Assembly: GCA_965203805.1 (NCBI GenBank)
Contig: OZ241917.1
Span: 2,496,001 to 2,560,000, forward strand
Length of the DNA: 64,000 nt
Reading direction: 5' to 3'
Origin: Candidatus Latescibacterota bacterium
Lineage (GTDB): Bacteria > Latescibacterota > UBA2968 > GCA-2709665
The position numbers were made by a program, and so were the translations under genes. Numbering within the stretch: the stretch's first letter is position 1; the number at the start of each line of letters is the position of its first letter. Positions 4,571 through 62,212 of the stretch are shown piece after piece. Below the pieces are notes generated by a model. It was not told where the DNA came from, did not search any database, and saw only the letters and a list, made by a program, of their open reading frames with translations.

Positions 4571-4602
4571 AATTGGCCACAAAAAGCACAGAAAACACAG
4601 AG
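4571..4602. repeat. GCCACAAAAAGCACA-type short intergenic repeat
   Basis: AATTGGCCACAAAAAGCACAGAAAACACAGAG. Reverse-complement copies at ~56156-56180 and ~56445-56475; interrupted copy at ~56215-56275. Confidence 0.65.
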
Positions 4603-21624: not shown

Positions 21625-21915
21625 TTCCTTGCCCTTTTTCTTGCTGCGCCCAAGAAAAAGGGCGAAAAAGAAGGGCGCCTGCCTGCCGAGCAGGCTTCGG
21701 CCTGTCTGCCGTTCCAACGGGACAGGCAGGCGCAGGCAGGCCGCTCGGCGCCTGTCTGCGTGCGTGAGACAGCACGCACAGGCAGGCGGGGCCGGTTTTT
21801 CCGTGAACCAACTCACTGCCGTAGTTGGAAATTGGCTGCCCTGTTACCGGATTAGGCCATCCCAAGCGATGGTGCTGGACGGAATAGCACGGAAAAACCC
21901 CCCACACCACAACCG
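21625..21915. repeat. Structured ~220-290 bp repeat element, copy A, with nested mini-elements
   Basis: Homologous to 57945-58170. Hairpin GCCCTTTTTCTTG/CAAGAAAAAGGGC at 21631-21663; stem GGTTTTTCCGTG/CACGGAAAAACC at 21794-21899. Confidence 0.85.
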
Positions 21916-22059
21916 TACGCTACAAACGTCCTCGCGAAGATTCGTTCGATTATGTTCTTACGCGATATCGCGCTTACAATCCCCCCACTCCGCCACCGGC
22001 TTACCCCCTATTCCGCTTCCTGAACGAAGGAGGAACTACCACCGCTTGGTGGACGCCTG

Positions 22060-22350
22060 TCTCTTCTCCCCCTCTCCTCACAGGAGAGGGGGCCTGCCTG
22101 CCGGTGGTTTTTCGGCAGGCAGGGGGGAGAGGTCTGCGGCCGCTATGGCCCTGCCACTTCACGGCGCTGACGCCGGTTTTGCCTTTCGCTTCTTGTCTTT
22201 GCTTCAAGCTGACTGCTTGTTGCTGGTTTGTCTTTCTTTGTGTCTTTGTGTCTTCGTGTGAGTTGAATGTCGTTTTGCTCTGCGCTGACCGGTTTATGTC
22301 TTATTGTTCTTGCTTCAAGCTGACTGCTGATGGCTGACCGCTGATCGCTG
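22060..22350. repeat. REP-like CCCCTCTCC/GGAGAGG hairpin with mini-element insert, plus GCTGA-heptad repeats
   Basis: Shares the GGAGAGG..CCTGCCTGCCGGTGGTTT..CAGGCAGG..GGAGAGGTCTGCG..CTTCACGGCGCTGACG block with 51710-51870. Confidence 0.75.
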
Positions 22351-49728: not shown

Positions 49729-51446
49729 GGGCCTGTCTCTCCTTCCCTCACGACGATCTCCCTGTCCGCCGAAATGCTCCTGATCCAATCCACCGCGCCG
49801 CCGGGCCATCGCACCCTGAGCGAATCGACCGTTGGAGCCTGGCCGAGTCCGAAATGGAGACGGAAGTCGTTCTGCGACAGATAGCTTGATCCGCTCCGGA
49901 CCTCGCCGACCTGCGGCCGGCCGCCGGCCCAGACCGTCACCCGCGCGCCGATTCCGTTGCGGTTCGACAAACGCGGAGTGCCGGTTGAACCCACGGAATG
50001 CTCCCGCGCGGCGCCCACCAGCTTCACCCTCAGCCACCGGCTCCCGTTGCCGGCGTCGTTTCTCAGGAGGCGCCCGGCGCCGTTTACCGAAAGCACGAAC
50101 ACGTCCACGTCTCCGTCGTTGTCATAGTCTCCGAACGCGGCGCCGCGGCCCGGCTGAGGTATGGACAGGCCGTCTTCCACGTCGCGCGTCACGTCGACGA
50201 ACCGGCCGTCACCGGTGTTGCGGAACAGGATTGCCGGCTGCTTGTAGACGCTGCCAACCCGGTGGGCGTTGTCGAGCACGTGGCCGTGCACCATCAGGAG
50301 GTCGGGCCAGCCGTCATTGTCGTAGTCCAGAAAGCCGATTCCCCATCCCACGTGGGGGATCGTTGGGGGCCTGATGCCGGATATCGAAGAGATATCCGTA
50401 AATAGCCCGGCGCCTTCGTTGCGGTAGAGCCCGGCGCCCTCCAGCCGGAAATTGGTCACCGCCAGGTCCAGGCGGCCGTCGCGGTTGAAATCGCCGAAAT
50501 CCGCGCCCATGCTGGACTGCAGGTCGCCCGAGCCGCTGTAGCCCAGGCCCGAAAGAAGCCCTCTGTCCACAAAGCGCCCGTCGCCCCGGTTCAGGTAGAG
50601 GAAATTGGGCGTCATATCGTTGGCCACGAAGATATCCGGGGTCCCGTCGCCATCGACGTCGGCGCATGCCATGCCCATCCCCTTGCCGCCGGGATTGAGG
50701 ACACCCGCCCGCTCCGTCACGTCTGTAAACGTCCCGTTTCCGTTGTTGCGATACAGGCGGTCCGCGGCCCCCTTGAAGTTGTCGGGATGGGGGTAAAACC
50801 GCTCGCCGTCGGACGGGCTCGCGGAGCGGGAGGCGTAGGGCCTCAGCCTTCTCTCCGGGGAGTCAATCGCGTAGTCCACGTAGTTGGCCACGTAGAGGTC
50901 CAGCAATCCATCCGAGTCCACGTCCAGAAAGGAGCATCCCACGCTCCAGACGGCGTCCCCGGAGACGCCGGCGGGCGCGGCGACGTCCCTGAACGTGCCG
51001 TCTCCGTGATTCCGGAACAGGCTGTTCGGCCCGTAGCACGTCACGTAGAGGTCGTCGTACCCGTCGTTGTCGAAGTCTCCCGCGCAGACGCCCATGCCGT
51101 AGGCCGTTTCGCCCACGCCGGCGAACCGGGTCACGTCGGAGAAAACGCCCCCGCCGGCGTTCCGGTACAGCCGGTTCCGCGGGGGCGGGCCGGCGTAGCC
51201 GGGCAACGTCCCCCCGTTGACGGCGAATACGTCCAGCCAGCCGTCGTTGTTGTAGTCCAGAAACGCGACCCCCGATCCCATCGTTTCCACGAAGTACTTC
51301 TTGTCGGTCCCCCCGTGGACGTGCCGGAAGTCGATGCCCGACGACGCCGTCACGTCCACGAATCGCGGCGAATCCGCGCGCAACGCTTCGCTCCATAGGA
51401 TCATGAGCAGCAGGAATCCGCATACGACGCGAGCTGATTGGACCAT
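49725..51446 (-). CDS. CRTAC1-family protein (FG-GAP repeats plus ASPIC/UnbV)
   Basis: ETMGSGVAFLDYNNDGWLD, repeated DxDxDG, SYLSQNDFRLHFGLG, VRWPGG. Confidence 0.9.
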   Translation of the reverse strand: MVQSARVVCGFLLLMILWSEALRADSPRFVDVTASSGIDFRHVHGGTDKKYFVETMGSGVAFLDYNNDGWLDVFAVNGGTLPGYAGPPPRNRLYRNAGGGVFSDVTRFAGVGETAYGMGVCAGDFDNDGYDDLYVTCYGPNSLFRNHGDGTFRDVAAPAGVSGDAVWSVGCSFLDVDSDGLLDLYVANYVDYAIDSPERRLRPYASRSASPSDGERFYPHPDNFKGAADRLYRNNGNGTFTDVTERAGVLNPGGKGMGMACADVDGDGTPDIFVANDMTPNFLYLNRGDGRFVDRGLLSGLGYSGSGDLQSSMGADFGDFNRDGRLDLAVTNFRLEGAGLYRNEGAGLFTDISSISGIRPPTIPHVGWGIGFLDYDNDGWPDLLMVHGHVLDNAHRVGSVYKQPAILFRNTGDGRFVDVTRDVEDGLSIPQPGRGAAFGDYDNDGDVDVFVLSVNGAGRLLRNDAGNGSRWLRVKLVGAAREHSVGSTGTPRLSNRNGIGARVTVWAGGRPQVGEVRSGSSYLSQNDFRLHFGLGQAPTVDSLRVRWPGGAVDWIRSISADREIVVREGETGP

Positions 51447-51521
51447 ACAAAGGTATTTTTATTGTATGCTGTGAGGGGTAACAAGACGGCTGGTGGAGAC
51501 GTCTGCGCCGTCGTTGCTACC

Positions 51522-51549
51522 GTAGGGGCGACCGGCCGGTCGCCCCTAC
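51522..51549. repeat. GTAG-type REP palindrome
   Basis: GTAGGGGCGACCGGCCGGTCGCCCCTAC perfect palindrome. Related hairpins at ~58388-58412 and 60810-60838 (minus strand). Confidence 0.7.
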
Positions 51550-51639
51550 AAAAACCGGGCATCCGGGAACTGATATCACAAGTGCAAAACGACATTCGGC
51601 GGACGCGGTGTGACCGTCTACCGTCTGTCCGCCTTCGAG

Positions 51640-51870
51640 ACCTACCCCCTTTCCCCCTTCCTGAAGGAAGGGGGGAACTGTCATCGCTTGATGGACTTCC
51701 TGGTTTTCTCCCCCTTTCCTTTAGGAGAGGGTCCCTGCCTGCCGGTGGTTTCTCGGCAGGCAGGGGGGAGAGGTCTGCGCCCATTCCGGTCCTGCTACTT
51801 CACGGCGCTGACGTCGATGGGTTGATTTTGACTCAAGCTGATTGCCGACTGCTGACCGCTGACCGCTCTT
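51640..51870. repeat. REP-like hairpin cluster with mini-element insert (homologous to 22060-22350)
   Basis: CCCCTTCC/GGAAGGGG and GGAGAGG hairpins; CCTGCCTGCC...CAGGCAGG insert at 51734-51764; GCTGA heptads. Confidence 0.75.
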
Positions 51871-51876
51871 CCCCCC

Positions 51877-53007
51877 TCACCGATAATTCAGCAGGGTATG
51901 GACCGCCCGTTTGAACACGTGGATCGCGCGTCTGGCGGAACCGTGCGGACCCGCCGTGGCGACGTTTGTCTCGTAGAATACACTTGGAATGCCCAGCCTT
52001 CGGGCCATCTGATAGCACATCGTATTCTCGCGATGCACGTTGGCTCTGCCGTGCGTGGACATCCCGTGGGTCTCCAGGCGCATCGTATCGCAGAGGGCCT
52101 GGTACAGCCGGGCGCGATCGGGATTCTCAAAGACCGGATCGACCACCTCGTACCATCCGTCGTAAGGGTATTCGCCGTTCTCCCGCCAGCCCACGAAGGC
52201 ATGGATATTCATCCACAGCGCCGGCCGGTCCGAGAGAAGCTTGTCCCACAGCAGGCGGCTCTCGCGGGCTTCGGGCGCGGCCGCTTCCGGGTCCTCTCCG
52301 AAAGCCCGGTACATGTCCAGTCCCTCGGCGTTGAACGCGTTTTTGCCCATAACGTTTCCGTCGGGATTGACCACGGGCAGGACGTCCACCTGCAACTGCT
52401 CCCTCAGGGAAACAGCATCCGGCACGAGGGACGTGATGAAATCCGCAATGCCCAGCATTCCCCACGTCCCCGAGAATTCGACCGCGTGCTGGCCGGCGAC
52501 GCACAGAATCCGTGGCTTGCCGGGCGTGCCGGCCCGGATTCCGGTGATGTCCCGCCCCTGCACCGATTTGCCAATGGTAAATGCCTCGCAGCGGTCCCCG
52601 CGTTCCTCCGCCAGCTTTCGGATCGTATCCCGGGTATCGCTGTAGGGCGCGGACCACGCGTTCGTGACTCGAATCGTCTCGTCCGCCTTCAGATTCAGGC
52701 GGATCAGCAGGGGTTCCTCCGTATTCCGGACGCGGTCGCGGTCGAGCGGCTTGAATCGGCCCTCGCCCGGGGACCCGACCCACACCGTGGTCGGCAGACC
52801 GGCCACGAATCCCTCAGGTCCGAATCGCGAGTCCGGCCACACTTCAACGGTCACGACCGATACCGGGCCGTCGTTCCGGACGTCAAAGCAGAAGTAGTAA
52901 CAGTAGGTCGCCTTGTCTCCGCCGACCTCCAGCCGAAACCGGTCGATTGCGATCTGCCGGATCTGCTTCGCGTTACCGCATTCGAAATCAGCCGCGATTG
53001 ATATCAT
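51877..53007 (-). CDS. M14 family zinc carboxypeptidase
   Basis: ADFECGN N-domain, IGKSVQGRDI, GQHAVE (HxxE), VNPDG, NIH. Confidence 0.85.
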   Translation of the reverse strand: MISIAADFECGNAKQIRQIAIDRFRLEVGGDKATYCYYFCFDVRNDGPVSVVTVEVWPDSRFGPEGFVAGLPTTVWVGSPGEGRFKPLDRDRVRNTEEPLLIRLNLKADETIRVTNAWSAPYSDTRDTIRKLAEERGDRCEAFTIGKSVQGRDITGIRAGTPGKPRILCVAGQHAVEFSGTWGMLGIADFITSLVPDAVSLREQLQVDVLPVVNPDGNVMGKNAFNAEGLDMYRAFGEDPEAAAPEARESRLLWDKLLSDRPALWMNIHAFVGWRENGEYPYDGWYEVVDPVFENPDRARLYQALCDTMRLETHGMSTHGRANVHRENTMCYQMARRLGIPSVFYETNVATAGPHGSARRAIHVFKRAVHTLLNYR

Positions 53008-53061
53008 CCCGATTCCCCCGCGGAGGCGCATAAACGCCATGCCCGCGCGTCATCCATGTAA

Positions 53062-54189
53062 TCAGTAATATCCGGTTCCCACCGGCGGCCGGGCGTACGC
53101 CACCTCGATGCGGCTGGGAACTCCAGTTCGTTTCATCGAATTCACGCCCCTGCATGCCAGCGACTGAACCCCCTCCCGCATCGGCCAGTCGAAACGCTCG
53201 CCGCACGGCTTCCAGGCGCCGTCGTCGAAGCGGATTTCGTAGTGGTCGAAGAACGGCATACAGTGCGAGAGCGTAACCGCCAGCCTGGCGCCGTCCTCGT
53301 CCCAGGAAGGCTGCGTGGAGATGCGCACGAGATTCACCGTCCAGTACACATCCGGGAGATTGGAGGTCCATTGAATGCGGCCGAGCGGTCTGAAATTGCT
53401 CACGAACGTGGGCAGGCATTTGCGGTCCACCCATTCCCAGGTCTGGCGATCCGTCAGTACCCGGACCCGGGCGTAGTAATCCATCACCCGGTTTCGCAGA
53501 AACCTCGCGAACAAATGGCGGTTGACCTCCTCGTCATAGTCTTTCCGGCAGGTGGGGTCCCGGAGCGCGAGACGGACGTGCCTGGCGTCGGGAAAGACGA
53601 ATTCCGGCTGATCCTGCACCATTTCAACCTCATCCGCGGCCCCGTCCAGCCACGCCTCCCGGATCTCCAGCGCGTTCAGCGGCGACCCGTCCCGCTCGTA
53701 GTGGACGTTGATGTCCGGGTCCATCATCACCCACTTCCGGTATTCGTTGGACCAGACCTCCGCTACCGCGTGCCCCACGTTCCACATCGTATAGTCGCGC
53801 GGCGCCTCGCAATCCTCGATGGAGACCGCCGCTCGTCGCGCGGGCCAGCCCAGCGCGGTCGCGGAATCCACGAAGACCCGGGCGTAGGAACCGCAGAAGA
53901 AGCGTTCCCCCCTGCTCACGGCCTCCAGAATCCCGAGTCCATCGTCGACTTCAGGGCGGTTGTACCAGAGCCCGTGGTCCCACTGTTCGCGGACCCATCG
54001 CTTCAATGCCAGGAATCCCTCGAATTCCGTCTCGCAGCCCGCTACGACCTCTTCCAGGCCGTATTCGTCCCTGAGGCGCGTAATTCTGGGAGCATGCGGA
54101 TCACCGTAATCGTGGCAGGTATGATCCCCGCTGAAGTCCGGGACGTCATAGGAGACGACGCGGAACTCTCCAGGACACCTCTGGCTCAT
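53062..54189 (-). CDS. Transglutaminase-like domain protein
   Basis: Cys-His-Asp triad: FFCGSYA, GHAVAEVWS, KWVMMDP. Confidence 0.8.
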   Translation of the reverse strand: MSQRCPGEFRVVSYDVPDFSGDHTCHDYGDPHAPRITRLRDEYGLEEVVAGCETEFEGFLALKRWVREQWDHGLWYNRPEVDDGLGILEAVSRGERFFCGSYARVFVDSATALGWPARRAAVSIEDCEAPRDYTMWNVGHAVAEVWSNEYRKWVMMDPDINVHYERDGSPLNALEIREAWLDGAADEVEMVQDQPEFVFPDARHVRLALRDPTCRKDYDEEVNRHLFARFLRNRVMDYYARVRVLTDRQTWEWVDRKCLPTFVSNFRPLGRIQWTSNLPDVYWTVNLVRISTQPSWDEDGARLAVTLSHCMPFFDHYEIRFDDGAWKPCGERFDWPMREGVQSLACRGVNSMKRTGVPSRIEVAYARPPVGTGYY

Positions 54190-54205
54190 GAGATTCTCCC
54201 GCGAG

Positions 54206-55120
54206 TCACCCCGTTCGCACCGGCTTCCCGAGCGCCTCGGCCATCGCACGGACGTGGGATGGGCCGGCGCCGCAACAGCAACCCACGAAGTTGATCCCTT
54301 CCGCCCTGGCCCTCAGCGCGAACGCCGCCATATCGTCGGGGGGGACGCCATTGCTATGCCGGCGGACGGCATAGCCCACGTTTTCCGTATCGGCCGTTTG
54401 TCTGAATGCTTTCGGCTGGCAGGCGATCGGTACATCCACCGCTTCCCGCATCTCGAGCGCCGTCGGCAGCATCTGTTCCGGGTCCCCGATACAGACGGTC
54501 CCCACGATGTCCGCGCCGTCGTCCACGAGGGCGCGGGCACACTCCGCCGCGGTGGCGCCGTCCTTTGTCGCCTTTTTGCTGCCGAGGCCCACGAGCGCCA
54601 TCGTCGGCAGGCCGGTTTTCTTACAGCTTTCCACGCACAGCCGCATCTCGTCCAGACGGGAGAACGTCTCCGGGATCAGGAAGTCGGCGCCGGCGTCGAC
54701 GAGAATTGCGATCTGTTCTTCCCATTCGGCCTGCGCGCGTGCGCCCGACGAAGGATCCTCCGGATCGTAAACCTGTTCTCCCAGACGGGAACCGGTCCTC
54801 GTGGATACGAGACAGCCGCCTACCGGCGTCTCCCAGTCCGATCCCTCCTTGGCCGCCCGAATCCCGGTCCTGTTGATCTCGTCCACGCGGTCTCCCCATC
54901 CGTATTTCTCCTCCAGCTGAGCACTCGAGGTAAACCACGTCAGCGCCTGGAGCACCTCGGCACCCGAATTGTAGAAGTCCCGGTGGATCTGCTGAAGCAC
55001 ATCCGGGTGGGAGCCGATGATGCCGGGCACATCGTAACCTCTCCAGTTCGCCTCCAGGTACATCCCACCGTCACCCAGGACGATCCCCTCGTTCAACATC
55101 TCCATCAGATTCCGCGCCAT
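54206..55120 (-). CDS. Homocysteine S-methyltransferase (BHMT-like) family protein
   Basis: VLGDGG, HRDFYNSG, PETF, VGTVC, FVGCCCG. Confidence 0.9.
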   Translation of the reverse strand: MARNLMEMLNEGIVLGDGGMYLEANWRGYDVPGIIGSHPDVLQQIHRDFYNSGAEVLQALTWFTSSAQLEEKYGWGDRVDEINRTGIRAAKEGSDWETPVGGCLVSTRTGSRLGEQVYDPEDPSSGARAQAEWEEQIAILVDAGADFLIPETFSRLDEMRLCVESCKKTGLPTMALVGLGSKKATKDGATAAECARALVDDGADIVGTVCIGDPEQMLPTALEMREAVDVPIACQPKAFRQTADTENVGYAVRRHSNGVPPDDMAAFALRARAEGINFVGCCCGAGPSHVRAMAEALGKPVRTG

Positions 55121-55151
55121 AGGGCAAACCTCCTTGTCTAAGGTCGCACCG

Positions 55152-56087
55152 CTACCGTAACTGATAAGGACCCTGCCTGTCCGGCATTGCCGTCGGTTTC
55201 CCGATCGCCTCGGCCATCGCCCGGATATGGTAAGGCAGGGCCCCGCAGCAGGCGCCGATGAAACCGACGCCCATATCCCACGCGTCCCGTGCGTAGTCGG
55301 CCATCTCGCGCCGGGGCTGGTGGCGGAGCTCGAAGTGGACGCTGGAGCCCGAGGCGATCTCCCGGGTGTACTCCGCGCCGTTTTCCAGCACGTACGCCAG
55401 GGGTTGGGCGCAGATGGGCACGGACACGGCGCCCATCATCTTTCGAACGATATCCCGGTACATGTACCACGGCCGCCCGCAATTCACGCCCACCACGTCG
55501 GCGCCATGGTCCACGAGCCGTTTTGCGGCCTCGTCCGGCAGGTACCGGTCCGACGTATACTCCCCCGATTTGTACTCCAGCGTCACCACAACGGGCACCC
55601 CGGCGCTCTTGATGTACGGCATGCCCAGCGACGCTTCTTCCACGGAATAAAACGTCTCCACGATGAACAGGTCGACGCCCGCGTCGGTCTGCTGGCCCAC
55701 CCGCCGTTCGAAGAACGCCTGCGCCTCGCGCCTTTCGTTCGCGGTAATGGGCGACCGCCGCTGGTACGGTCCGACGCCGGCGGGGCTTAGTGTACCCGCC
55801 ACGAGACGATCCGGTCCGGCGGCCTCTCTTGCAAGCTCGACGGCGGTGCGGTGCAGTTCTTCATCCCGGTCCATCCGGCCCACGCCCCAGGTCATGGCCT
55901 GCAGCACCTCGGCGCCCGCCAGCGCGAACTCCCTGTGCAATTGGAGCAGACCCTCCGGGTGGTCCAGTACGGCCCAGGGCACCCCTTTTTCGAAATTGCC
56001 CAGGCATCTCCGTTCGAGCTCCAGATAGTAGCCGCCGTCGCCAAGTACCGGCCCGTCCTTCAGACGATCCAGAAAACCCGATGCCAT
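55152..56087 (-). CDS. Homocysteine S-methyltransferase (BHMT-like) family protein
   Basis: VLGDGGY..ELERR, HREFALAG, VETF, VGVNC, FIGACCG. Confidence 0.9.
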   Translation of the reverse strand: MASGFLDRLKDGPVLGDGGYYLELERRCLGNFEKGVPWAVLDHPEGLLQLHREFALAGAEVLQAMTWGVGRMDRDEELHRTAVELAREAAGPDRLVAGTLSPAGVGPYQRRSPITANERREAQAFFERRVGQQTDAGVDLFIVETFYSVEEASLGMPYIKSAGVPVVVTLEYKSGEYTSDRYLPDEAAKRLVDHGADVVGVNCGRPWYMYRDIVRKMMGAVSVPICAQPLAYVLENGAEYTREIASGSSVHFELRHQPRREMADYARDAWDMGVGFIGACCGALPYHIRAMAEAIGKPTAMPDRQGPYQLR

Positions 56088-56474
56088 GATAACGCCTCCT
56101 GCAGGGTCACGGGAGTATGAGACAACGATAACATGCTCTCCGCAATAGACCCCACGCCTTTTGTGCTTTTTGTGGCCAATGTCTCTTCAACCTGATTAAC
56201 GCGTAAAGGCAGTTGCCACAAAAGGCCTGCCTGCAGCGCAGGGCACTGCGCAGGCAGGCACAAAAACACAAAAGAAAAACTCAACCCCGGAACTGCTAAA
56301 TGGACACGCACGACGCCAGTATTCGGTCTGAGTGGCGTCGGTCCTGCAAGTGCCGTTTATTACCAGGAGTTGACATTGTGTTGGCTCCGCTTTTCGGGAG
56401 AATGTGGCAAACTATGACGTGCTCCCGTGACACGTTCTTCACCTTCTGTGCCTTTTGTGCTTTTTGTGGCCAAT

Positions 56475-57716
56475 TCAACGGTCTTCTTTTTTCGAGTTGA
56501 GGTCAATAGGAAAATCGCCGGCTTTTCGCGTTTCCGACGGCCTGAAATCCGGGACCTCCAGGCACGCGTTCCCCTGTTCCACGGACTGAACGGCCACAAT
56601 CGCCGGCGCCGTCAGTTCCGCCGACCGGTAGACGTTCAGCGGCGGGTCCGAGTCGTTCAGAATGGCGTCCAGGAAAGAAGAAAGCGCAAAGTAGTCCATA
56701 TTCCCGTGCCCGCTGCCCCTGGCCGCCTCGGGAAGGTCGTCCGGGGAGAACTCCCACGCCGCTTCCCGCATGGATTCCTCTCCGGAACGCTCCAGCCAGA
56801 TCTTCGGTGTGTCCACTCCCCGGGGACCGCCGTATATCTCCGCGGACCGGGCGGTCTCCACCTTTCCCTTCGTCCCTTCCAGGTGCCACCAGTGATGGTC
56901 CCGGGGCGTCGCGTACGTAAACCCGACCGCCATCCGGATGATCGTATCCTTTTCGGTGTGCATCAACGCCACCTCGATATCCGAGGCGGGAATCCCTTCA
57001 TAATAGTAGCTTTCAGGCCGCGTCCCCATGCACGTGACCCGCGTCACCCGGTCATCCAGAACCGTCAGGATGGGGCCCAGGTCGGTGGCCATGTACAGAA
57101 TCGGGTGCGGAAACCAGTTCCACATTCTGCTCTTCGCGGCCCTCGGATGATCCTCGGCGGCATCCAGATCGATCCGTTCGCCCGTTTCGGAATCGACCCA
57201 GAACCGGTCCGGCGTCATCCCGTGAAGATACTGCCCCTGGGCGAAGATGACATGGCCGAGTTCGCCCTCCCGGACCAGGCGGCGCCATGCCTTCACAAAC
57301 GGGTGGTACATCACCTGTTCCGCCATCTGAAACTTCAGGCCGCTGCGCTCCACCGCCACCACGACCCGCCATAGGTCGTCCATGTCGTACGTCAGCGACA
57401 CCTCGCACGCCGCGTGCTTCCCCGCTTCCATGGCCCGGCAGATCAGGTCCGGCTGATCGTGCGGCGCGGTCACGATCGCCACCGCGTCGATATCCGCCTT
57501 CGCCAGCATCTCCTCATAGTCGGTAAAGCACGCGATATCGGGATCGCCGGCCTCGCGGTACGCCTGCGCCACAAGCGCATCGACCCGGTCGCACAATGCC
57601 GTCACGCGGCACGTCTCGATCCGCAGCAGGTTCTTCATCCACGACAGCCTCCCCCGCGGGCCCAGACCTACGATTCCGATTCGAACCGGTTTCTTTTTGG
57701 GCATCAGATGCCTCAT
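56475..57716 (-). CDS. Gfo/Idh/MocA oxidoreductase, GH109-like branch, copy 3
   Basis: RIGIVGLGPRG, GKHAACEV, GQYLH, GSGHGNMDY; shares ALMxTEKDTxIRM and DHHWW with copies 1 and 2. Confidence 0.85.
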   Translation of the reverse strand: MRHLMPKKKPVRIGIVGLGPRGRLSWMKNLLRIETCRVTALCDRVDALVAQAYREAGDPDIACFTDYEEMLAKADIDAVAIVTAPHDQPDLICRAMEAGKHAACEVSLTYDMDDLWRVVVAVERSGLKFQMAEQVMYHPFVKAWRRLVREGELGHVIFAQGQYLHGMTPDRFWVDSETGERIDLDAAEDHPRAAKSRMWNWFPHPILYMATDLGPILTVLDDRVTRVTCMGTRPESYYYEGIPASDIEVALMHTEKDTIIRMAVGFTYATPRDHHWWHLEGTKGKVETARSAEIYGGPRGVDTPKIWLERSGEESMREAAWEFSPDDLPEAARGSGHGNMDYFALSSFLDAILNDSDPPLNVYRSAELTAPAIVAVQSVEQGNACLEVPDFRPSETRKAGDFPIDLNSKKEDR

Positions 57717-57944
57717 TTCCGTTTCATTGACCTTCTGGCTGACCTTTCCCGCCCTGCCGTCTCACGTCTTCCCGCCGTTCGAAGAACGACGCTGCTCAGA
57801 TACCGCAACCGGAACGGAAGGACAGGCTGGTCCCCCTACGTTTTGTCCGTAGTATACTGACAGGTTGCCTGCCTGCGAACAAACTTCCTTTGGAACTAAC
57901 CTCTGGTAGAACAAGAGCTTAATCTCGCCCACAAACTCTTATTT

Positions 57945-58170
57945 TCTCTTCGTCCTTTTTCTTGTACGCCCAAGAAAAAGGACCAAAAAGAACGGCGCCT
58001 GCCTGCCGAGCAGGCTTCGGCGCAGGCAGGCCGCTCGGCGCGGGGCCGGTTTTTCCGTGAACCTGCTCAGTGGCGGAAATGGCAATTGGTTGCCCTGTCA
58101 CCGGACCAGTCCGTATCGAACGAAGTTGCTGGACGGAATAGCACGGAAAAACCCCCCACACCTCAACCGG
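57945..58170. repeat. Structured repeat element, copy B
   Basis: Homologous to 21625-21915 but lacks two of the nested inserts. Confidence 0.85.
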
Positions 58171-58261
58171 GCGGCAAGTTGATACACCGGTAAGGACAAT
58201 CGCACGGATTCACGGTTCTGCCGCTGATCACTGTCTCTGACGTCCCCTGGGAGCGAGGGCA

Positions 58262-58357
58262 CCTGCCTGCGCAGTGCCCTGCCTGCCTGTGCGTGTACGC
58301 CTGCCTGCGCAGTGCCCTGCGCTGCAGGCAGGCACGCAGACAGGCGCTGCAGGCAGG
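58262..58357. mobile_element. Triple-nested CCTGCCTG...CAGG mini-elements
   Basis: Outer 33-mer (58262-58281 + 58345-58357) contains a 30-mer (58282-58299 + 58333-58344), which contains an intact 33-mer (58300-58332). Confidence 0.7.
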
Positions 58358-58547
58358 TCCTGCCCTCGACGCGCCGTCGCTGCATTCGTAGGGGCGACTT
58401 TCAAAGTCGCCCGGATTACGGCGCTGACGTCAATGGTTCGGTCCTGGTTCAAGCTGATGGCTGACCGCTGATAGCTGCCTTTTGCTGCTCTTCAAAGAGA
58501 AACGGCAGCCGGATATCAGGCTGCCATTTATTGATCGGAAAATGCGG

Positions 58548-59153
58548 TCAGCGAGTGCCATGGGGATCCTCCGAAACCAGGTAGTCATCGTGCCTGGAGG
58601 AGACATCCGGCTCAGGACCCTTACTTGCGCCAACGAACTGCATCAGCTTGCGCCTCTCTCTGACCTTTCGCGGATTAATACCTATGGATACGAGACGCCT
58701 GCTACTGTCGAGATCGAGATATACGCCTCGAATCACCGAAACGCGTTCGTGAACTTCGGCGTTGCTCTCAGTGACCTGTACGGTGGACTTCGACTTGTAC
58801 GATCCGGGGGACTTGCCGAGAATCATCCTGATCAGGCTCTTTAGTCTTTCGTAATCTGCTTCTTCAGGCAGGTTATCGTCCAAGATCAGGGCGGCACAAT
58901 GTTGTAGGCCCCTGGCTGCTTCGTCAGTTGTGACCAAACCCCTATTTAGCTTTTCGAACACTTCCGCCAGCCCTGCACGGTGGAAGGCGATTTCCTGTTC
59001 CGTAAGTCCGAAGAGCGACCTTCCCCTGCCACCTCCAGGAGGTTGCTCCGGAAGAAGGTCTACTGCCCCCGGCAAAAATTCACGAAAGCCCTTCGGGTCT
59101 TCCCTGTACCGAGCCTGGAGGAGTTCGATAAGGCGTCTTTCCTGTATCTTCAT
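58548..59153 (-). CDS. Hypothetical protein with antitoxin-like C-terminus
   Basis: MKIQERRLIELL start; ends FVGASKGPEPDVSSRHDDYL, a tail typical of antitoxins encoded before PIN toxins. Confidence 0.55.
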   Translation of the reverse strand: MKIQERRLIELLQARYREDPKGFREFLPGAVDLLPEQPPGGGRGRSLFGLTEQEIAFHRAGLAEVFEKLNRGLVTTDEAARGLQHCAALILDDNLPEEADYERLKSLIRMILGKSPGSYKSKSTVQVTESNAEVHERVSVIRGVYLDLDSSRRLVSIGINPRKVRERRKLMQFVGASKGPEPDVSSRHDDYLVSEDPHGTR

Positions 59154-59166
59154 TGGTCCCACCCAG

Positions 59167-59535
59167 TTACGATCGTGGACCGACCAACCAGACTGTTTCT
59201 TCCAATAGGACAATGGCGAAACGGCCTCCGCCTTCGCACAGCGTCTGCCATTCCTCAGCAGTGTAGACAAGTAGATCGGTGGGTACGACCAGGGTGTGTG
59301 TCGGCCAGGACCGCGCACGCTCGAAAAATGGAGCGGGACTGTTCTCCACCACCGCCACCAGGTCGAGATCACTGCCGAAACTCGCGTCCCCTCGAGCATA
59401 GGATCCGAAATATCCCAATGCCAACAGGTCCCCGCGCTCTTCAGACTGATCCGTGCACCAGCGGCGAAGCCCTTCAATTACAGTTTCACTCCCCGGCCAA
59501 CGCTTGACGGACGAAGTTGAGGATGTCACCGGCAT
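59167..59535 (-). CDS. Minimal nucleotidyltransferase (MNT) antitoxin
   Basis: FGSYARGD...SDLDL and DLLVYT motifs. Confidence 0.88.
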   Translation of the reverse strand: MPVTSSTSSVKRWPGSETVIEGLRRWCTDQSEERGDLLALGYFGSYARGDASFGSDLDLVAVVENSPAPFFERARSWPTHTLVVPTDLLVYTAEEWQTLCEGGGRFAIVLLEETVWLVGPRS

Positions 59536-59875
59536 ATCTCAATCCTTGATCGCTCTGCAACGGTCCGTAGTGTTCGTAGGGCGCCCCTTCAGGGTGCCCG
59601 TTCGGGTAGCGTGTCGATACGTAGTAGTTGTCGAGGGCCCGCCCTTGCTCGACAATCTGCTCCGGCGGCGCTTCAGGGAGTTCCGACAGGAGGCGGGCGA
59701 CAACGTGGCCCCATGCCTCCTGTCCCATTGAGAGATGGAGCGCTTTGACGGCTTTTTCAGCGGCCTGGTGAGCGGCGAAGCAGGCCCAGTCGTGACGGCC
59801 GTCATTGCGTGAAGCCGTTGCCTGTTCAAGATCGTGCTCCGCCTGGGCGAGCCAATCCCGCCATCGCTGCGCCAT
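59486..59875 (-). CDS. HEPN domain protein (toxin of a HEPN/MNT pair)
   Basis: WLAQAEHDL, ACFAAHQAAEKAVKA, WGH, YVSTRYPNGH. Confidence 0.9.
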   Translation of the reverse strand: MAQRWRDWLAQAEHDLEQATASRNDGRHDWACFAAHQAAEKAVKALHLSMGQEAWGHVVARLLSELPEAPPEQIVEQGRALDNYYVSTRYPNGHPEGAPYEHYGPLQSDQGLRYAGDILNFVRQALAGE

Positions 59876-60175
59876 CCTGCCTCTCCATCCCTGGTTGCAC
59901 ATTGTCCGGATGCGTCTGAATCCGGCGGCCCATGCCGCGCCGATTTCCGATCCTGCGATAGCCCCCTGGTGCATAAAAATGAAAATATCCCTAATCGAAG
60001 ACTTAAGCAAGGGGAAATGGTTACGCGGCCGCCGTCCGTCGGAAGATAAAGCATTGACGTCGGGTTTGCCGATATTTAACTTATCGACTACAATCAGGTA
60101 GCGCGCCACGCTCAGGGGATTCTGCGCGCCTCCGCCCTCGAAAGTGGAGAAATTGAACTCGGAAGGAGATTGTTT

Positions 60176-60406
60176 ATGAGATCATTCGAGAGGATCACCA
60201 TCGATCCAGCGGTCATGGGCGGAAAGGCATGCATTCGTGGTCTGCGCGTTACGGTTGGTACCGTCATCGGGCTTTTGGCAGCCGGACGCTCACGTGACGA
60301 AATCCTCAAAGCATATCCCTACCTTGAACGAGAGGATATCGACCAATCCCTGGCCTACGCCGCGTGGCGGCTCGAGGAGAGGGAGGTACCGCTCTCTACA
60401 TCATGA
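60176..60406 (+). CDS. DUF433 antitoxin
   Basis: RITIDPAVMGGKACIRGLRVTV...YPYLEREDI..LAYAA; AGGAG SD. Confidence 0.92.
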   Translation: MRSFERITIDPAVMGGKACIRGLRVTVGTVIGLLAAGRSRDEILKAYPYLEREDIDQSLAYAAWRLEEREVPLSTS

Positions 60407-60771
60407 GACCGTTGCTCCTACTTGACATGAACCTTTCGCCAGCGTGGGTGGAGGTGCTGAAAAAGCGCGGATGGCTTGCTGTCCACTGGAGTGCTGTAGG
60501 CGATCCACACGCGAGTGACCGGGAGATTATGGATTGGGCTGCGGAGCACGAATACGTCGTTTTTACCCACGATCTGGACTTCGGCACAATGCTTGCGTTG
60601 TCGCATGCAAACGGGCCCAGCGTGTTGCAAATCCGCGCCGAGGACATTTTGCCCGATCATCTGGAATCCTCAGTCATCGCTGCCCTGAACCAGCACGAAC
60701 GTGACCTGGCTTCGGGCGCTCTTGTGGTCGTCGACGAAAGCCGGAGTCGAGTCCGGGTGTTGCCAATTTGA
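60403..60771 (+). CDS. DUF5615 PIN-like toxin
   Basis: LLDMNLSP, DREIMDWA, THDLDFG, RVRVLPI; ATGA overlap with the DUF433 gene. Confidence 0.9.
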   Translation: MRPLLLLDMNLSPAWVEVLKKRGWLAVHWSAVGDPHASDREIMDWAAEHEYVVFTHDLDFGTMLALSHANGPSVLQIRAEDILPDHLESSVIAALNQHERDLASGALVVVDESRSRVRVLPI

Positions 60772-60968
60772 ATGTCGATCAGGGCATCGAACCAACTTGG
60801 GTGGTGGGCTCCAGGTTGAGTGAATCAGCCTGGACTACGTTGTAATTGTTATTTCGATGGCGAATACGAAAAGCCGAAACTTGCTTGCCTGAAAAGGTTC
60901 CTGTATCTTATGAATAAGCGGTAGTTTATCACTTTCCCCTCATTGGTTGAAAAACGTGGGAGAGGCGC

Positions 60969-61295
60969 ATGTCCGCCACAGTTTTTACTGTTTTGTGTGT
61001 TCAAAAATCTGGTTATTGGTTTGCTCAGTGTTTGGATCACAATATCGCAGCAGAAGGTTCAACCATTGAAGAAGCCAAACAAAACTGGGCTCAACTATTC
61101 GAGAGTCATTTGCGTGTTGCTGAGAAATTAAAAATAGAGCCGTTCACAAACATCGGGGAAGTGCCAGAAAGATATATTGAGTTGCATAGGGAAAAATGTG
61201 AAGTTGAAAAACAGGAACCTGTTCCCTTGCAAATGACTGTGAACGACCATAAGGATGTAATTTTAACTGATGCGGCACGAGCGGTATTTGTTTGA
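60969..61295 (+). CDS. HicB-like antitoxin
   Basis: WFAQCLDHNIAAEGSTIEEAKQN; GAGG SD. No intact HicA seen adjacent. Confidence 0.7.
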   Translation: MSATVFTVLCVQKSGYWFAQCLDHNIAAEGSTIEEAKQNWAQLFESHLRVAEKLKIEPFTNIGEVPERYIELHREKCEVEKQEPVPLQMTVNDHKDVILTDAARAVFV

Positions 61296-61521
61296 AAATA
61301 TAGAGCAGATTGAGCCGGTTTGTTTCGGTACTGTCAGACGAAAAACCTCGATGGACGTCTCATCGGGGTCTTTTCTTGTGCCGAACAGGATGCCGTAACC
61401 GTCGCAGAATGCTACACTCATTTGGACATCGTGAATCCCGGCGGCAGACCACGCGATTATCCTGCCGTTATTTCTTCCTTTTTCCTTCTTCCTTTTTCCT
61501 TCTGCCATCATACTTTTCCCT

Positions 61522-61941
61522 TTGCTCACGCTGGTGCATGAGCGGGCATTACTCGCCACGACCAACCAAGATACCGACCAAGTTACCGGACAAGATAAGT
61601 CATTGAAAAATAAGGGGATAGGTCAAGACACCCTACAAGACACCCAACAAGATACCCCACAAGATACCGACCAAGTCACTGACCAAGTCGAGCAACTGGT
61701 CGCTGTACTCACTGGAGAGATGAGCCGTGCCAGTATCCAGGCACGATTGGAACTCAAAGACCGACCCCATTTCATCGAGTCGTACCTGAAGCCTGCCCTG
61801 GAGGCCGGATTGATTGAAATGACGCTCCCGGACAAGCCAACGAGCCGCCACCAGCGCTACCGCCGCACTTCTAGAGGCGAGACATTCGTTGAACAGACCA
61901 AGGGAAAAACGAAGAATGAAGAATCGCGGGATGGAGAATAG
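61522..61941 (+). pseudogene. C-terminal fragment of a Fic-family protein (QDT repeat linker plus HTH)
   Basis: QDT/QVT repeats with 12-bp period, then MSRASIQARLELKDRPHF..YLKPALEAGLIEMTLPDKPTSRHQRY. No Fic catalytic motif upstream. Confidence 0.65.
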
Positions 61942-61999
61942 AGGTTATTTACATTGATCCTGCATTCTTCCTTCTTCCTTTTTTTCTTCGGAGAAGCTC

Positions 62000-62212
62000 G
62001 TGCCCAAAGTCAACACCAAGCGACAGATTACGTTACCGGCTGATCAGTGCCGTTTGGCCGGCATTGAGCCAGGCGACGAGTGCCTGAGTTTCGTGGATGA
62101 TGGCTGCATCACCATCGTCCGCCAACAGCCCGGCAGCGCCTGGGGATGCCTGGCGCATCTTGAAAGGGATCCGACGGTTTCAGACGTGGCGTCGCGCCAG
62201 GACGTCATTTAA
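62000..62212 (+). CDS. AbrB/MazE/SpoVT family antitoxin
   Basis: PKVNTKRQITLP....AGIEPGD; GTG start with GGAG SD. Confidence 0.85.
   Translation: MPKVNTKRQITLPADQCRLAGIEPGDECLSFVDDGCITIVRQQPGSAWGCLAHLERDPTVSDVASRQDVI

What the first reader, a model, noticed from the sequence alone, without database searches (positions are those of the whole stretch)
58262..58357. 30-36 bp CCTGYCTG...CAGRCAGG mini-elements that appear mobile and nest inside each other
Seen: the same 33-mer (CCTGCCTGCGCAGTGCCCTGCGCTGCAGGCAGG) occurs three times: intact at 58300-58332, split as the outer shell at 58262-58357, and as its exact reverse complement at 56226-56258. A related 30-mer sits between the two nested copies. 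Removing all three restores a clean host hairpin, GAGGGCA^TCCTGCCCTCG. At 56226 the element splits a GCCACAAAAGG^CACAAAA repeat whose uninterrupted relatives are at 4571 and 56445. Other family members are at 21678, 21701, 21751, 22093, 51734 and 57998. All share ~9-bp terminal inverted repeats around a variable core, show no target-site duplication, and most insert at G^C. Inference: an ultra-small non-autonomous mobile element that targets hairpin/REP DNA, including itself, moved in trans by an unknown enzyme (possibly an HUH/RAYT-like nuclease). No candidate transposase is in this window.
Basis: partly seen in the sequence, partly recalled or inferred. Interest (0 to 1): 0.8.

Follow-up and report, generated by a model that had tools for sequence, protein, structure and literature searches.

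The report
Tiny nesting hairpin insertion elements
These 21-37 base hairpins are real miniature mobile DNA that drops precisely into other repeats, genes and each other, and they share their ends with a 282-base element that encodes a small GIY-YIG nuclease, which may be the enzyme that moves them.

Summary
The window holds a three-layer nest (33-mer inside a 30-mer inside a 33-mer) sitting in a REP hairpin. The genome holds 233 such CCTGYCTG...CAGGCAGG hairpins of 23-40 nt.

They behave as insertions:
- The nearest relative genome has exact empty sites at orthologous places.
- 68 of 143 flank contexts have empty paralogues.
- There is no target duplication.
- The junction is G^C in about 80% of distinct contexts.
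- The 96-nt nest recurs 100% identical in other flanks.

The family is not confined to this Latescibacterota lineage. Many lie in frame inside genes.

The main new result lies outside the window. An element of about 280 nt has the same termini, and its loop encodes a UPF0213/YhbQ-type GIY-YIG nuclease with no start or stop codon. It sits in frame in restriction-modification methylase genes, with exact empty sites in four relatives.

The minis look like its miniature derivatives. Whether the GIY-YIG nuclease moves them is inferred, not shown. A RAYT transposase is a weaker candidate.

The parts
58300..58332 (+). Innermost 33-nt mini-element (family B), intact
   Evidence: Exact match. After layer-by-layer excision there are 19 copies of this exact sequence in the genome. 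It folds as a hairpin, DNA dG -14.0, z -2.8.
58282..58344 (-). Middle 30-nt mini-element (family C, T-type end). It is split 18|12 by the inner 33-mer: 58282-58299 + 58333-58344.
   Evidence: Read. Seven unsplit copies of the same 30-mer exist in the genome. The same B-in-C insertion point is seen at 3 loci.
58262..58357 (+). Outer 33-nt mini-element (family B), split 20|13 (58262-81 + 58345-57). The whole 96-nt three-layer nest spans these coordinates.
   Evidence: The 96-mer is 100% identical at G000:1776640-1776735 in other flanks, 97% at 4982899-4982994, and 93% in G001. The nest folds with every foot paired, dG -39.9, z -4.0.
58255..58367 (+). Host REP hairpin GAGGGCA / TCC / TGCCCTC that carries the nest. 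The insertion lies between the 5' arm and the loop.
   Evidence: The same hairpin flanks the RAYT gene elsewhere in the genome. Genome-wide there are 29 exact empty copies and 4 exact filled ones, all filled at this same position.
56226..56258 (-). 33-nt mini-element (family B) in GCCACAAAAGG^CACAAAAAC, in an intergenic region
   Evidence: The orthologous site in G001 lacks exactly these 33 nt, with conserved flanks (alignment A1).
57998..58030 (+). 33-nt mini-element (family D, inner stem CCGAG/TTCGG) inside a larger dispersed repeat of about 250 nt
   Evidence: This copy serves as the 'empty' paralogue for two further insertions seen at 21.7 kb (alignment A3).
21678..21740 (+). Family D 33-mer (21678-21700 + 21731-21740) split by a 30-nt family F element (21701-21730)
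   Evidence: The 30-mer is absent from the window paralogue. In G001 the orthologous site holds a different 33-mer, family B' (A3).
21751..21786 (+). 36-nt mini-element (T-type end) at CCGCTCGGCG^CGGGGCCGG
   Evidence: Exactly absent both from the G001 orthologue and from the window paralogue at 58041 (A3).
22093..22123 (+). 31-nt family A hairpin, a fixed part of a larger module (CCCCTCTCC..GGAGAGGGG-[A]-GGGGAGAGGTCT)
   Evidence: About 45 genome copies always have the same flanks and no empty site. G001 lacks the whole module here.
51734..51764 (+). 31-nt family A hairpin in the same kind of module

Best explanation
The CCTGYCTG...CAGGCAGG hairpins are miniature, non-autonomous insertion elements.

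Each has three parts:
- an invariant 8-bp foot;
- a variable inner stem and loop;
- a 2-nt bulge (CG or CA) just before the 3' foot.

They enter DNA exactly at the foot of the hairpin, usually between G and C, without duplicating the target. They land in other repeats, REP hairpins, IS transposase genes, ordinary genes and each other. A nest still moves as one unit, so the outer foot is what matters.

They are the short, MITE-like relatives of an element of about 280 nt with the same foot, bulge and inner stem. The loop of that element encodes a 93-residue UPF0213/YhbQ-type GIY-YIG nuclease. It has no start or stop codon and is read in frame as part of the host protein (HsdM, HsdS or a DUF1156 methylase).

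Inferred, not shown: this nuclease, a structure-specific cutter by family, nicks at the base of the extruded hairpin. Host ligation or repair then seals the donor and joins the released hairpin into a nick or break elsewhere. Spread among copies of a repeat may also go by homing-like gene conversion.

Lengths that are multiples of three, and termini free of stop codons in all six frames, let copies survive inside genes.

My odds:
- real insertion elements: about 0.9;
- kinship with the GIY-YIG element: about 0.85;
- GIY-YIG as the mobilising enzyme: about 0.5.
For: Census and family structure:
- There are 203 simple, 26 second-layer and 4 third-layer elements, 233 in all. An earlier count of 218 simple matches gave 74 distinct sequences.

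Insertion behaviour:
- Exact orthologous empty sites exist in G001 for the 33-mer at 56226 and the 36-mer at 21751.
- One orthologous site holds a different family member in G001.
- 68 of 143 flank contexts have at least one empty paralogue.
- Eight paralogous IS copies show stepwise gain: 4 have no element, 2 have a 21-mer, 2 have the 21-mer plus a 33-mer.
- There is no target duplication.
- The 96-nt nest is identical in other flanks.

Shared architecture:
- All 28 distinct oriented 33-mers fit 8+5+5+5+2+8.
- The inner stem is 82% paired, against 29-45% for shifted registers.
- Pair 10-22 covaries, CG 16 / AT 10.
- End types are (C,G) 170, (T,G) 32, (C,A) 31 and never (T,A), so the two ends are not equivalent.

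Coding compatibility:
- 151 of 233 genome copies and 119 of 124 metagenome copies have lengths that are multiples of 3.
- 66 of 124 metagenome copies lie in open frames of at least 150 codons.
- Copies sit in frame in DDE transposase genes.

The GIY-YIG element:
- In G000 it lies at 5397827-5398108 and reads CCTGCCTG-CG-CCGAG...CTCGG-CAGGCAGG, 282 nt. It hits PF01541 at 52.9 bits and is in frame in hsdM.
- Its first 18 nt plus its last 13 nt account for 31 of the 33 nt of a family D mini.
- The same unit is in G016 hsdM (84% aa), metagenome L337 hsdM (76%, stem CCGCG/CGCGG), L307 hsdS (59%) and L235 DUF1156 methylase (41-49%).
- 39 public protein clusters cover all 93 query residues or nearly all (95-100%), termini-encoded ends included. 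37 are of HsdM type, 1 is DUF1156 and 1 is HsdS.
- Exact empty hsdM sites exist in G001, G011, G012 and G003.
- Of 168 genomes of the phylum, only G000 and G016 carry the full-length unit. Both are among the five genomes with at least 67 minis.
- The nearest solved structures are the UPF0213 proteins 1zg2 and 1ywl.
Against: - Three genomes rich in minis have no termini-bounded GIY-YIG element: G001 (118), G015 (129) and G011 (67). G001's hsdM site is empty.
- None of the seven G000 window elements checked is shared with G001, so G001 must have had its own activity.
- Only one GIY-YIG copy is seen per genome, and mostly at one hsdM site. This also fits a nuclease gene that rides with hsdM.
- GIY-YIG nucleases are not known to join DNA. 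The pasting step has no shown enzyme.
- No cleavage, excision or transcription data exist.
- The G000-G016 co-occurrence rests on two related genomes with the same insertion site.
Confidence: 0.5

Rival explanations
1. The minis are moved by the REP-associated tyrosine transposase (RAYT, HUH Y1). It would bind the folded single strand, cut at a dinucleotide (here G|C) on both sides of the hairpin, and transfer the strand into another G|C.
For: - A RAYT is present: NF047646 at 104 bits against a cut-off of 80.
- Both Y1 domains of G000 have a mini-element nearby: 7 nt after the stop codon of one and about 320 nt from the other.
- RAYT above the cut-off is found in 4 of the 5 genomes with at least 67 minis, against 5 of the 17 other genomes of the family.
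- Published TnpA-REP biochemistry fits the mini architecture: a single-stranded hairpin, a stem bulge required for activity, and cleavage at a dinucleotide 5' or 3' of the hairpin followed by strand transfer (passages read in PMC8266576).
Against: - The RAYT's own flanking REPs are a different family, GTAG + GGGCA-loop-TGCCC.
- The minis near it sit inside those REPs, which are a favoured target in any case.
- None of 6 RAYT loci of related Latescibacterota genomes has a mini within 1.5 kb.
- G015 (129 minis) has no RAYT above the cut-off. G020, with RAYT, has only 2 minis; G017 and G018, with RAYT, have none.
- There is no clear replichore orientation bias: 34:30 and 26:14.
- The minis carry no GTAG or CGTC tag.
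Confidence: 0.15
2. The GIY-YIG gene is not the driver. It is a homing-endonuclease-like parasite that once inserted into the loop of a mini-element lying in hsdM and now travels with restriction-modification genes. The minis are moved by something else, or by general host repair enzymes.
For: - There is one GIY-YIG copy per genome.
- 37 of 39 public clusters are at what looks like the same hsdM site.
- Mini-rich genomes exist without it.
- Nested insertion into loops is a habit of this family.
Against: - Termini and nuclease have stayed together over 41-84% amino-acid divergence and in at least four insertion sites in three gene families.
- The inner stem of the termini varies in step with mini families, CCGAG versus CCGCG.
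- Only 2 of 168 genomes carry it, and both are mini-rich.
Confidence: 0.15
3. There is no transposition of the minis as such. They are passengers of larger mobile repeats and IS elements, and they spread between copies of a repeat by gene conversion. The nests reflect recombination between mosaic repeats.
For: - Many copies share identical flanks. Family A has about 45 copies always in the same module, with no empty site.
- IS copies carry them at fixed places.
- 68 of 143 contexts are themselves repeated.
Against: - The identical 33-mer lies in at least 7 unrelated flank contexts.
- One identical 30-mer lies in at least 23 metagenome contigs of GC 0.40-0.68 with different flanks.
- One host site is occupied by unrelated family members.
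- There are exact indels at orthologous sites.
- The 96-nt nest is identical in two unrelated flanks.
Confidence: 0.07
4. The elements spread through an RNA copy that is reverse-transcribed or otherwise templated back into DNA. As I recall, this was proposed for the cyanobacterial SDR elements.
For: - Strand asymmetry: G.T (G.U) pairs occur on one strand only. Pair 5-29 is TG in 4 of the 28 sequences and pair 11-21 is GT in 9 of 28. That strand has no A.C at these two pairs.
- There is one reverse transcriptase gene in the genome.
Against: - The asymmetry is equally explained by a single-stranded DNA form.
- The single RT is not linked to the elements.
- No poly-A, priming site or RT association was seen.
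- The orientation used was partly defined by the T-type end.
Confidence: 0.05

Closest known systems
SDR (small dispersed repeat) elements of Nostocaceae (Elhai et al. 2008, Genome Res 18:1484). The paper is not held in the library. Its features are recalled, plus one passage about it in PMC5861425.
   Same: - Very small dispersed hairpin repeats, recalled as 21-27 nt.
- They insert into other repeats and into copies of themselves.
- Families share a fold rather than a sequence.
- No enzyme is known.
   Different: - Unrelated sequence.
- SDRs were reported only in Nostocaceae. This family is in Latescibacterota and in many metagenome contigs of GC 0.37-0.70.
- Here the lengths are multiples of 3, copies lie in frame in genes, and a nuclease-encoding full-length partner is identified.
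REP / REPIN elements with RAYT (TnpA-REP)
   Same: - Hairpins of 20-40 nt at high copy number.
- A bulge in the stem.
- A single-strand-specific architecture.
- A RAYT gene is present in the genome.
   Different: - No GTAG or CGTC tag.
- Not confined to extragenic DNA.
- No doublet (REPIN) organisation is needed.
- Precise single-hairpin indels are seen.
- The genome's RAYT is flanked by a different REP family, which the minis use as a target.
Rickettsia palindromic elements (RPE). Recalled, and mentioned in a passage of PMC3733652.
   Same: Palindromic repeats found inserted in frame within protein-coding genes that stay open.
   Different: - RPEs are longer (recalled as about 100-150 nt) and restricted to Rickettsia.
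- No nuclease-encoding partner and no nesting is known for them (recalled).
MITEs and their parent insertion sequences
   Same: Short non-coding derivatives that keep the termini of a longer, enzyme-encoding element and outnumber it.
   Different: - No target duplication.
- 21-40 nt rather than 70-300 nt.
- The parent encodes a GIY-YIG nuclease domain with no start or stop codon, not a DDE transposase.
GIY-YIG homing endonuclease genes (free-standing or intron-borne)
   Same: - A GIY-YIG nuclease gene with presence/absence polymorphism at an exact site in conserved genes.
- Empty alleles in relatives.
   Different: - Not in an intron or intein.
- Read through as part of the host protein.
- Bounded by a 13-bp bulged hairpin foot.
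- Accompanied by hundreds of miniature copies.
- The domain is of the UPF0213/YhbQ type, not the I-TevI type (only 17.8 bits to TIGR01453).

Membership tests
SDR elements (Elhai 2008) | Dispersed repeats of about 21-27 nt with a conserved hairpin fold, found nested in themselves (recalled) | tested here: met
   Elements of 21-40 nt, 30 nested cases, and a common 8+5+5+5+2+8 template
SDR elements (Elhai 2008) | Sequence families SDR1-8, confined to Nostocaceae | tested here: not met
   The host is a Latescibacterota MAG. The passage says no SDR was found outside Nostocaceae.
REP/REPIN-RAYT | Conserved GTAG (or CGTC) tag at one end of the palindrome | tested here: not met
   The minis start CCTGYCTG and end CAGGCAGG with variable flanks. 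GTAG is found only on the GGGCA REPs next to the RAYT gene.
REP/REPIN-RAYT | The RAYT gene is flanked by its cognate repeats | tested here: inconclusive
   G000's RAYT has a mini 7 nt after its stop codon, but it lies inside a GGGCA REP. None of 6 related RAYT loci has a mini.
REP/REPIN-RAYT | Extragenic location | tested here: not met
   Copies lie in frame in transposase, methylase and helicase genes. 66 of 124 metagenome copies lie in long open frames. They are still depleted from long ORFs in G000: 69 of 202 against 84% coverage.
MITE | Terminal inverted repeats shared with an autonomous, enzyme-encoding element | tested here: met
   The GIY-YIG element shares foot, bulge and inner stem with family D minis
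MITE | Target-site duplication and a DDE-type parent transposase | tested here: not met
   No duplication. No long element with these ends encodes a transposase.
IS200/IS605 | Y1 transposase, subterminal hairpins at both ends, and insertion 3' of a fixed 4-5 nt target | tested here: not met
   There is a single hairpin. The target is only about SSG^C. No TnpB is present. No clear replichore bias.
GIY-YIG homing endonuclease gene | GIY-YIG catalytic core (Tyr, Tyr, Arg, His, Glu) conserved | tested here: met
   PF01541 at 52.9-54.9 bits. Invariant Y12, Y22, R32, H36 and E69 in alignment A6. Assigning these to catalytic roles is from recalled knowledge of the family.
GIY-YIG homing endonuclease gene | Housed in a self-splicing intron or intein, or free-standing with its own start and stop codons | tested here: not met
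   The host frame stays open across the unit, 623 aa in G000, with no start or stop codon. There is no Rfam intron hit in the window, but the hsdM locus itself was not scanned.
GIY-YIG homing endonuclease gene | Cleaves the empty allele and spreads by repair | not testable with these tools
   Empty alleles exist. Cleavage is untested.

The most novel reading that the evidence does not exclude
This is a previously undescribed class of prokaryotic mobile DNA.

Its unit is a hairpin-bounded element whose only gene is a 93-residue UPF0213-type GIY-YIG nuclease. The nuclease is expressed as an in-frame insert of the host protein, mostly restriction-modification methylases.

It mobilises in trans swarms of 21-39-nt derivatives. 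These are the smallest mobile elements known. They are built to be harmless in any reading frame, they nest in one another, and they cross phyla on IS elements and phages.

If true, it would give a first enzyme and a test system for the unexplained ultra-small palindromic repeats (SDR, RPE and the like). It would also assign a function to the widespread UPF0213/YhbQ family.
Probability: 0.4. Interest if true: 0.9.

Novelty: new variant of a known kind. Interest (0 to 1): 0.8.

Why it matters
- How repeats far too small to encode anything move has been open since the SDR and RPE elements were described. Here a family of this kind comes with a concrete, testable candidate enzyme and exact filled and empty sites.
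- The elements alter proteins. They add 7-13 residues in frame to transposases, methylases and helicases. A whole nuclease domain is added to HsdM, HsdS and DUF1156 methylases.
- They break short-read assemblies.
- They are widespread in metagenomes yet match no Rfam family. Nothing like them turned up in my literature searches.
- A nuclease that recognises a 13-bp bulged hairpin foot, together with a 30-nt cargo that inserts without a scar, could also be of practical use.

Tried and rejected
- **Reads.** Logan contigs of four runs (X1, X3, X4, X5) were laid on 50000-62000. Contigs end inside the elements, none bridges the nest, and the one 33-nt skip at 57996-58030 has sides of only 21-27 nt and may come from paralogues. 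This gives no verdict on population polymorphism.
- **Parent element scan.** A scan for a long parent with ungapped inverted ends found nothing convincing. It missed the GIY-YIG element because of the 2-nt bulge.
- **Hairpin-junction targeting.** As a general rule this fails: 5 of 110 contexts.
- **Replichore bias.** Not clear.
- **TnpB.** None. There is one reverse transcriptase, unlinked.
- **Rfam.** No family matched. The only hit was mir-346 at E 0.91, which is chance.
- **BLAST of a 33-mer against cultured phages and plasmids.** Only chance-level partial hits.
- **Viral contigs.** There are 92 stretches with hairpins that have these ends, some of them clear family members. No termini-bounded GIY-YIG was found there, either with one protein or with alignment A6.
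- **Stand-alone UPF0213 genes of G001, G007 and G012.** They have no family termini.
- **Pattern search for ~280-nt elements in G001, G011, G015 and G008.** None found. The G015 hit is two separate minis.
- **Orthologue comparison at 57.7-58.5 kb and at 22.09 kb.** The regions are too diverged, or the whole module is absent, so they are not informative for the mini itself.
- **ORF-based test for genic location in G000.** It is crude. Stop-to-stop frames of at least 250 aa cover 84% of this GC-rich genome.
- **Technical failures.** The Elhai 2008 paper is not held. Supplements of papers were not consulted.
Full report
**1. The observation**

The sequence is as described.
- At 58262-58357 a 33-mer is split 20|13 by a 30-mer.
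- The 30-mer is itself split 18|12 by an intact copy of the same 33-mer (58300-58332).
- The reverse complement of the 33-mer lies at 56226-56258.
- The pattern CCTGYCTG-N(8-30)-CAGRCAGG matches 7 times in the window, against 0 in 100 shuffles.

The window is G000:C1:2496001-2560000 of a single-contig genome of 5.87 Mb and 59% GC.

**2. Census in the genome**

I cut out minimal elements layer by layer. This gave 203 simple, 26 second-layer and 4 third-layer elements, 233 in all. An earlier count of 218 simple matches gave 74 distinct sequences.
- The excised outer layers are ordinary family members, mostly 33 nt.
- A 4-nt CCTG ambiguity made my script mis-parse a few outer shells as 29-mers, including the one in the window.
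- Lengths cluster at 27, 30, 31, 33, 36 and 37 nt. 151 of 233 are multiples of 3.

**3. Are they insertions?**

Orthologous sites:
- The closest genome held (G001, about 88-92% identical here) has the site GCCACAAAAGG^CACAAAAAC without the 33 nt, and the flanks are conserved (A1).
- At the 21.7-kb locus G001 lacks the 36-mer and the nested 30-mer exactly.
- At the place where G000 has a family D 33-mer, G001 carries a different 33-mer (A3).
- None of 13 genus orthologues of the 56-58 kb region carries any element.

Paralogous sites:
- The window's own copy of the same ~250-nt repeat at 57.95-58.17 kb lacks those two inserts.
- 68 of 143 flank contexts have at least one empty copy in the genome, allowing up to 2 mismatches in 24 nt.
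- Eight copies of an IS4-like element show stepwise gain: none in 4 copies, a 21-mer in 2, and the 21-mer plus a 33-mer in 2.

Further signs:
- One identical 33-mer lies in at least seven unrelated flank contexts.
- One host site can hold unrelated family members.
- There is no target duplication.
- In 104 distinct oriented contexts, position -1 is G in 83 and +1 is C in 81.
- The whole 96-nt nest recurs 100% identical at 1776640-1776735 in different flanks, at 97% at 4982899, and at 93% in G001. So a nest still moves, and the structure is not an assembly artefact.
- Short-read contigs could not bridge the nest.

Against a purely autonomous picture: many copies have fixed flanks.
- Family A has about 45 copies, mostly in 3.24-3.47 Mb. 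It is always in the same module, with no empty site.
- Some copies are passengers of IS elements.

**4. Anatomy**

All 28 distinct oriented 33-mers (93 copies) fit one template: CCTG[C/T]CTG - 5 - 5 - 5 - CG/CA - CAGGCAGG.
- The inner stem is 82% paired, against 29-45% for shifted registers and 22-45% for the two alternative stem models.
- Pair 10-22 covaries, CG 16 / AT 10.
- The loop is hypervariable.
- The ends are not equivalent. The end types are (C,G) 170, (T,G) 32, (C,A) 31 and (T,A) 0.
- Single elements and the nest fold better than shuffles, z -2.6 to -5.8.
- The bulge and the one-strand G.T pairs point to recognition of a folded single strand.
- The orientation I used was partly defined by the T-type end. 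The GT pairs at 11-21 are independent of that definition.

**5. Targets**

REP hairpins are favoured.
- The host hairpin of the nest, GAGGGCA-TCC-TGCCCTC, belongs to the repeat family that flanks a RAYT gene at 4533512-4534117.
- There are 29 exact empty REPs and 4 exact filled ones, always between arm and loop. Two more filled copies sit in degenerate REPs.

In general, though, only 5 of 110 host contexts lie at the stem-loop junction of a hairpin with a stem of 5 bp or more. Controls give 1.7-1.9%.

Elements are depleted from long open frames: 69 of 202, against 84% coverage by a crude measure. They are not excluded from genes.
- A 27-mer and a 36-mer lie in frame in an IS5-like transposase with five ~100% identical copies.
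- A 21-mer and a 33-mer lie in frame in a DDE_Tnp_1_4 transposase.

**6. Distribution**

Relatives with record titles are Candidatus Latescibacterota MAGs.
- Of 168 genomes of the phylum, 41 have at least one match.
- Only 11 have more than 10. Ten are in the window's family: 146, 129, 118, 100, 67, 31, 26, 19, 16 and 11. One is in the sister family, with 13.
- Within the genus the count runs from 0 to 146.

The family is much wider than this phylum.
- The 124 copies lie in contigs of GC 0.37-0.70.
- They measure 30, 33, 36 or 39 nt in 119 of 124 cases.
- One identical 30-mer occurs in at least 23 contigs with different flanks.
- 66 of 124 lie in open frames of at least 150 codons. All six frames are used, mostly the one reading LPA...QA.
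- Viral contigs hold some clear members.
- Cultured phages and plasmids do not.
- No Rfam family matches.

**7. The partner element**

One metagenome contig with eight minis (L235) has a DUF1156 methylase carrying a GIY-YIG domain whose coding stretch is bounded by the family termini.

G000 has the same thing.
- At 5397827-5398108 lies a 282-nt unit, CCTGCCTG-CG-CCGAG...CTCGG-CAGGCAGG.
- It encodes LPAPSPG...[GIY-YIG]...RARQAG in frame inside hsdM.
- Its first 18 nt and last 13 nt make up 31 of the 33 nt of a family D mini present in three copies.

The unit recurs in other hosts:
- G016, another genus, in hsdM, 84% aa identity.
- L337, hsdM, same site, 76%, with the stem switched to CCGCG/CGCGG.
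- L307, hsdS, 59%.
- Among 212 environmental loci chosen only for holding a mini, four hold a homologue and three of these are termini-bounded.
- 39 public protein clusters match with 95-100% of the query covered (100% in 35). 37 are of HsdM type, one is DUF1156 at a second site, and one is HsdS.

It also shows presence/absence polymorphism.
- G001, G011, G012 and G003 have the orthologous hsdM with the flanks abutting exactly where the 282 nt sit in G000.
- In the phylum only G000 and G016 carry the full-length unit. Both are among the five genomes with at least 67 minis. By my own arithmetic the chance of 2 of 5 against 0 of 163 is about 0.0007. The two share the insertion site and are kin, so this overstates the case.
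- The nearest solved proteins are UPF0213 (YhbQ-like) GIY-YIG proteins.

**8. Mechanism**

Shown:
- precise, scar-free indels at the hairpin foot;
- shared termini between the minis and a nuclease-encoding unit;
- the nuclease gene's own presence/absence polymorphism.

Inferred:
- The nuclease cuts at the hairpin foot. GIY-YIG enzymes of the Slx1/UvrC kind are structure-specific; this is recalled knowledge.
- Host ligation or repair completes excision and insertion.
- Homing-like conversion spreads copies among repeats.

Against:
- G001, G015 and G011 are rich in minis yet have no such unit.
- There is only one copy per genome.
- No joining activity is known for this enzyme family.

The RAYT is the main rival.
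- For: published TnpA-REP biochemistry fits (hairpin, bulge, dinucleotide cleavage, strand transfer; passages of PMC8266576), and RAYT is present in 4 of the 5 richest genomes.
- Against: its cognate REPs differ, six related RAYT loci carry no mini, and G015 lacks it.

**9. Comparison and novelty**

- The closest known phenomenon is the SDR family of Nostocaceae. I could not read that paper. A later paper states that no SDR was found outside Nostocaceae.
- RPEs share the in-frame habit.
- My literature searches found no prokaryotic GIY-YIG element with miniature derivatives, and no such insert described in hsdM. These were listings and abstracts only, and subscription journals are largely missing from the library.
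- I rate it a new variant of a known kind: ultra-small nested palindromic mobile repeats. The new part is the identified nuclease-bearing partner and the coding-neutral design.

Noticed in passing
G000:C1:4546470-4549700 (locus L002), outside the window: A second RAYT (Y1) domain lies in frame inside a 1252-codon open frame that looks like a DUF1156-type DNA methylase. It is flanked by GCGGGCG-TCC-CGCCCGC hairpins, one of which holds a 27-nt mini. Similar long frames with RAYT hits occur in G008, G011 (two) and G016. Methylase genes seem to collect in-frame selfish nuclease domains.
   Followed up: partly
G000:C1:3.24-3.47 Mb, outside the window; window examples at 22060-22140 and 51700-51775: About 45 copies of a larger module, CCCCTCTCC-loop-GGAGAGGGG + family A hairpin + GGGGAGAGGTCT, are crowded into about 230 kb. 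Their orientation flips near 3.33 Mb and again near 3.46 Mb, roughly following the direction of the long ORFs.
   Followed up: partly
window 57950-58170 and 21640-21920: A dispersed repeat of about 250 nt has a CTTTTTCTTG...CAAGAAAAAG hairpin, a fixed slot for a 33-mer, and a conserved GGACGGAATAGCACGGAAAAACCCCCC tail. It has many copies in G000 and in genus relatives. Its nature is unknown.
   Followed up: no
G000:C1:1308656-1309965 (L127) and 433150-434620 (L128), outside the window: There is an IS5-like element in five ~100% identical copies and an IS4-like family (DDE_Tnp_1_4) in eight copies. Both carry mini-elements in frame in the transposase gene. One lies just before the conserved EHPFG motif, yet the IS still looks recently active.
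   Followed up: partly
metagenome locus L235 (8845 nt): This is a defence-type cluster: DUF1156 methylase, SNF2-type helicase with a NOV_C domain, and a DarT/macro-domain (DarTG-like) pair. It carries eight mini-elements plus the GIY-YIG unit, all in frame.
   Followed up: partly
loci L022-L028: Close relatives (59-71% aa) of this genome's RAYT occur in MAGs labelled Thermodesulfobacteriota, Binatia, Entotheonella, Foliamicus and Pseudomonadales. This suggests transfer of the RAYT between phyla.
   Followed up: no
window 56156-56180, 56450-56474, 4576-4593: A short GCCTTTTGTGCTTTTTGTGGCCAAT / GCCACAAAAAGCACAAAA motif is repeated around the gene at 56475-57716. It is conserved in G001.
   Followed up: no
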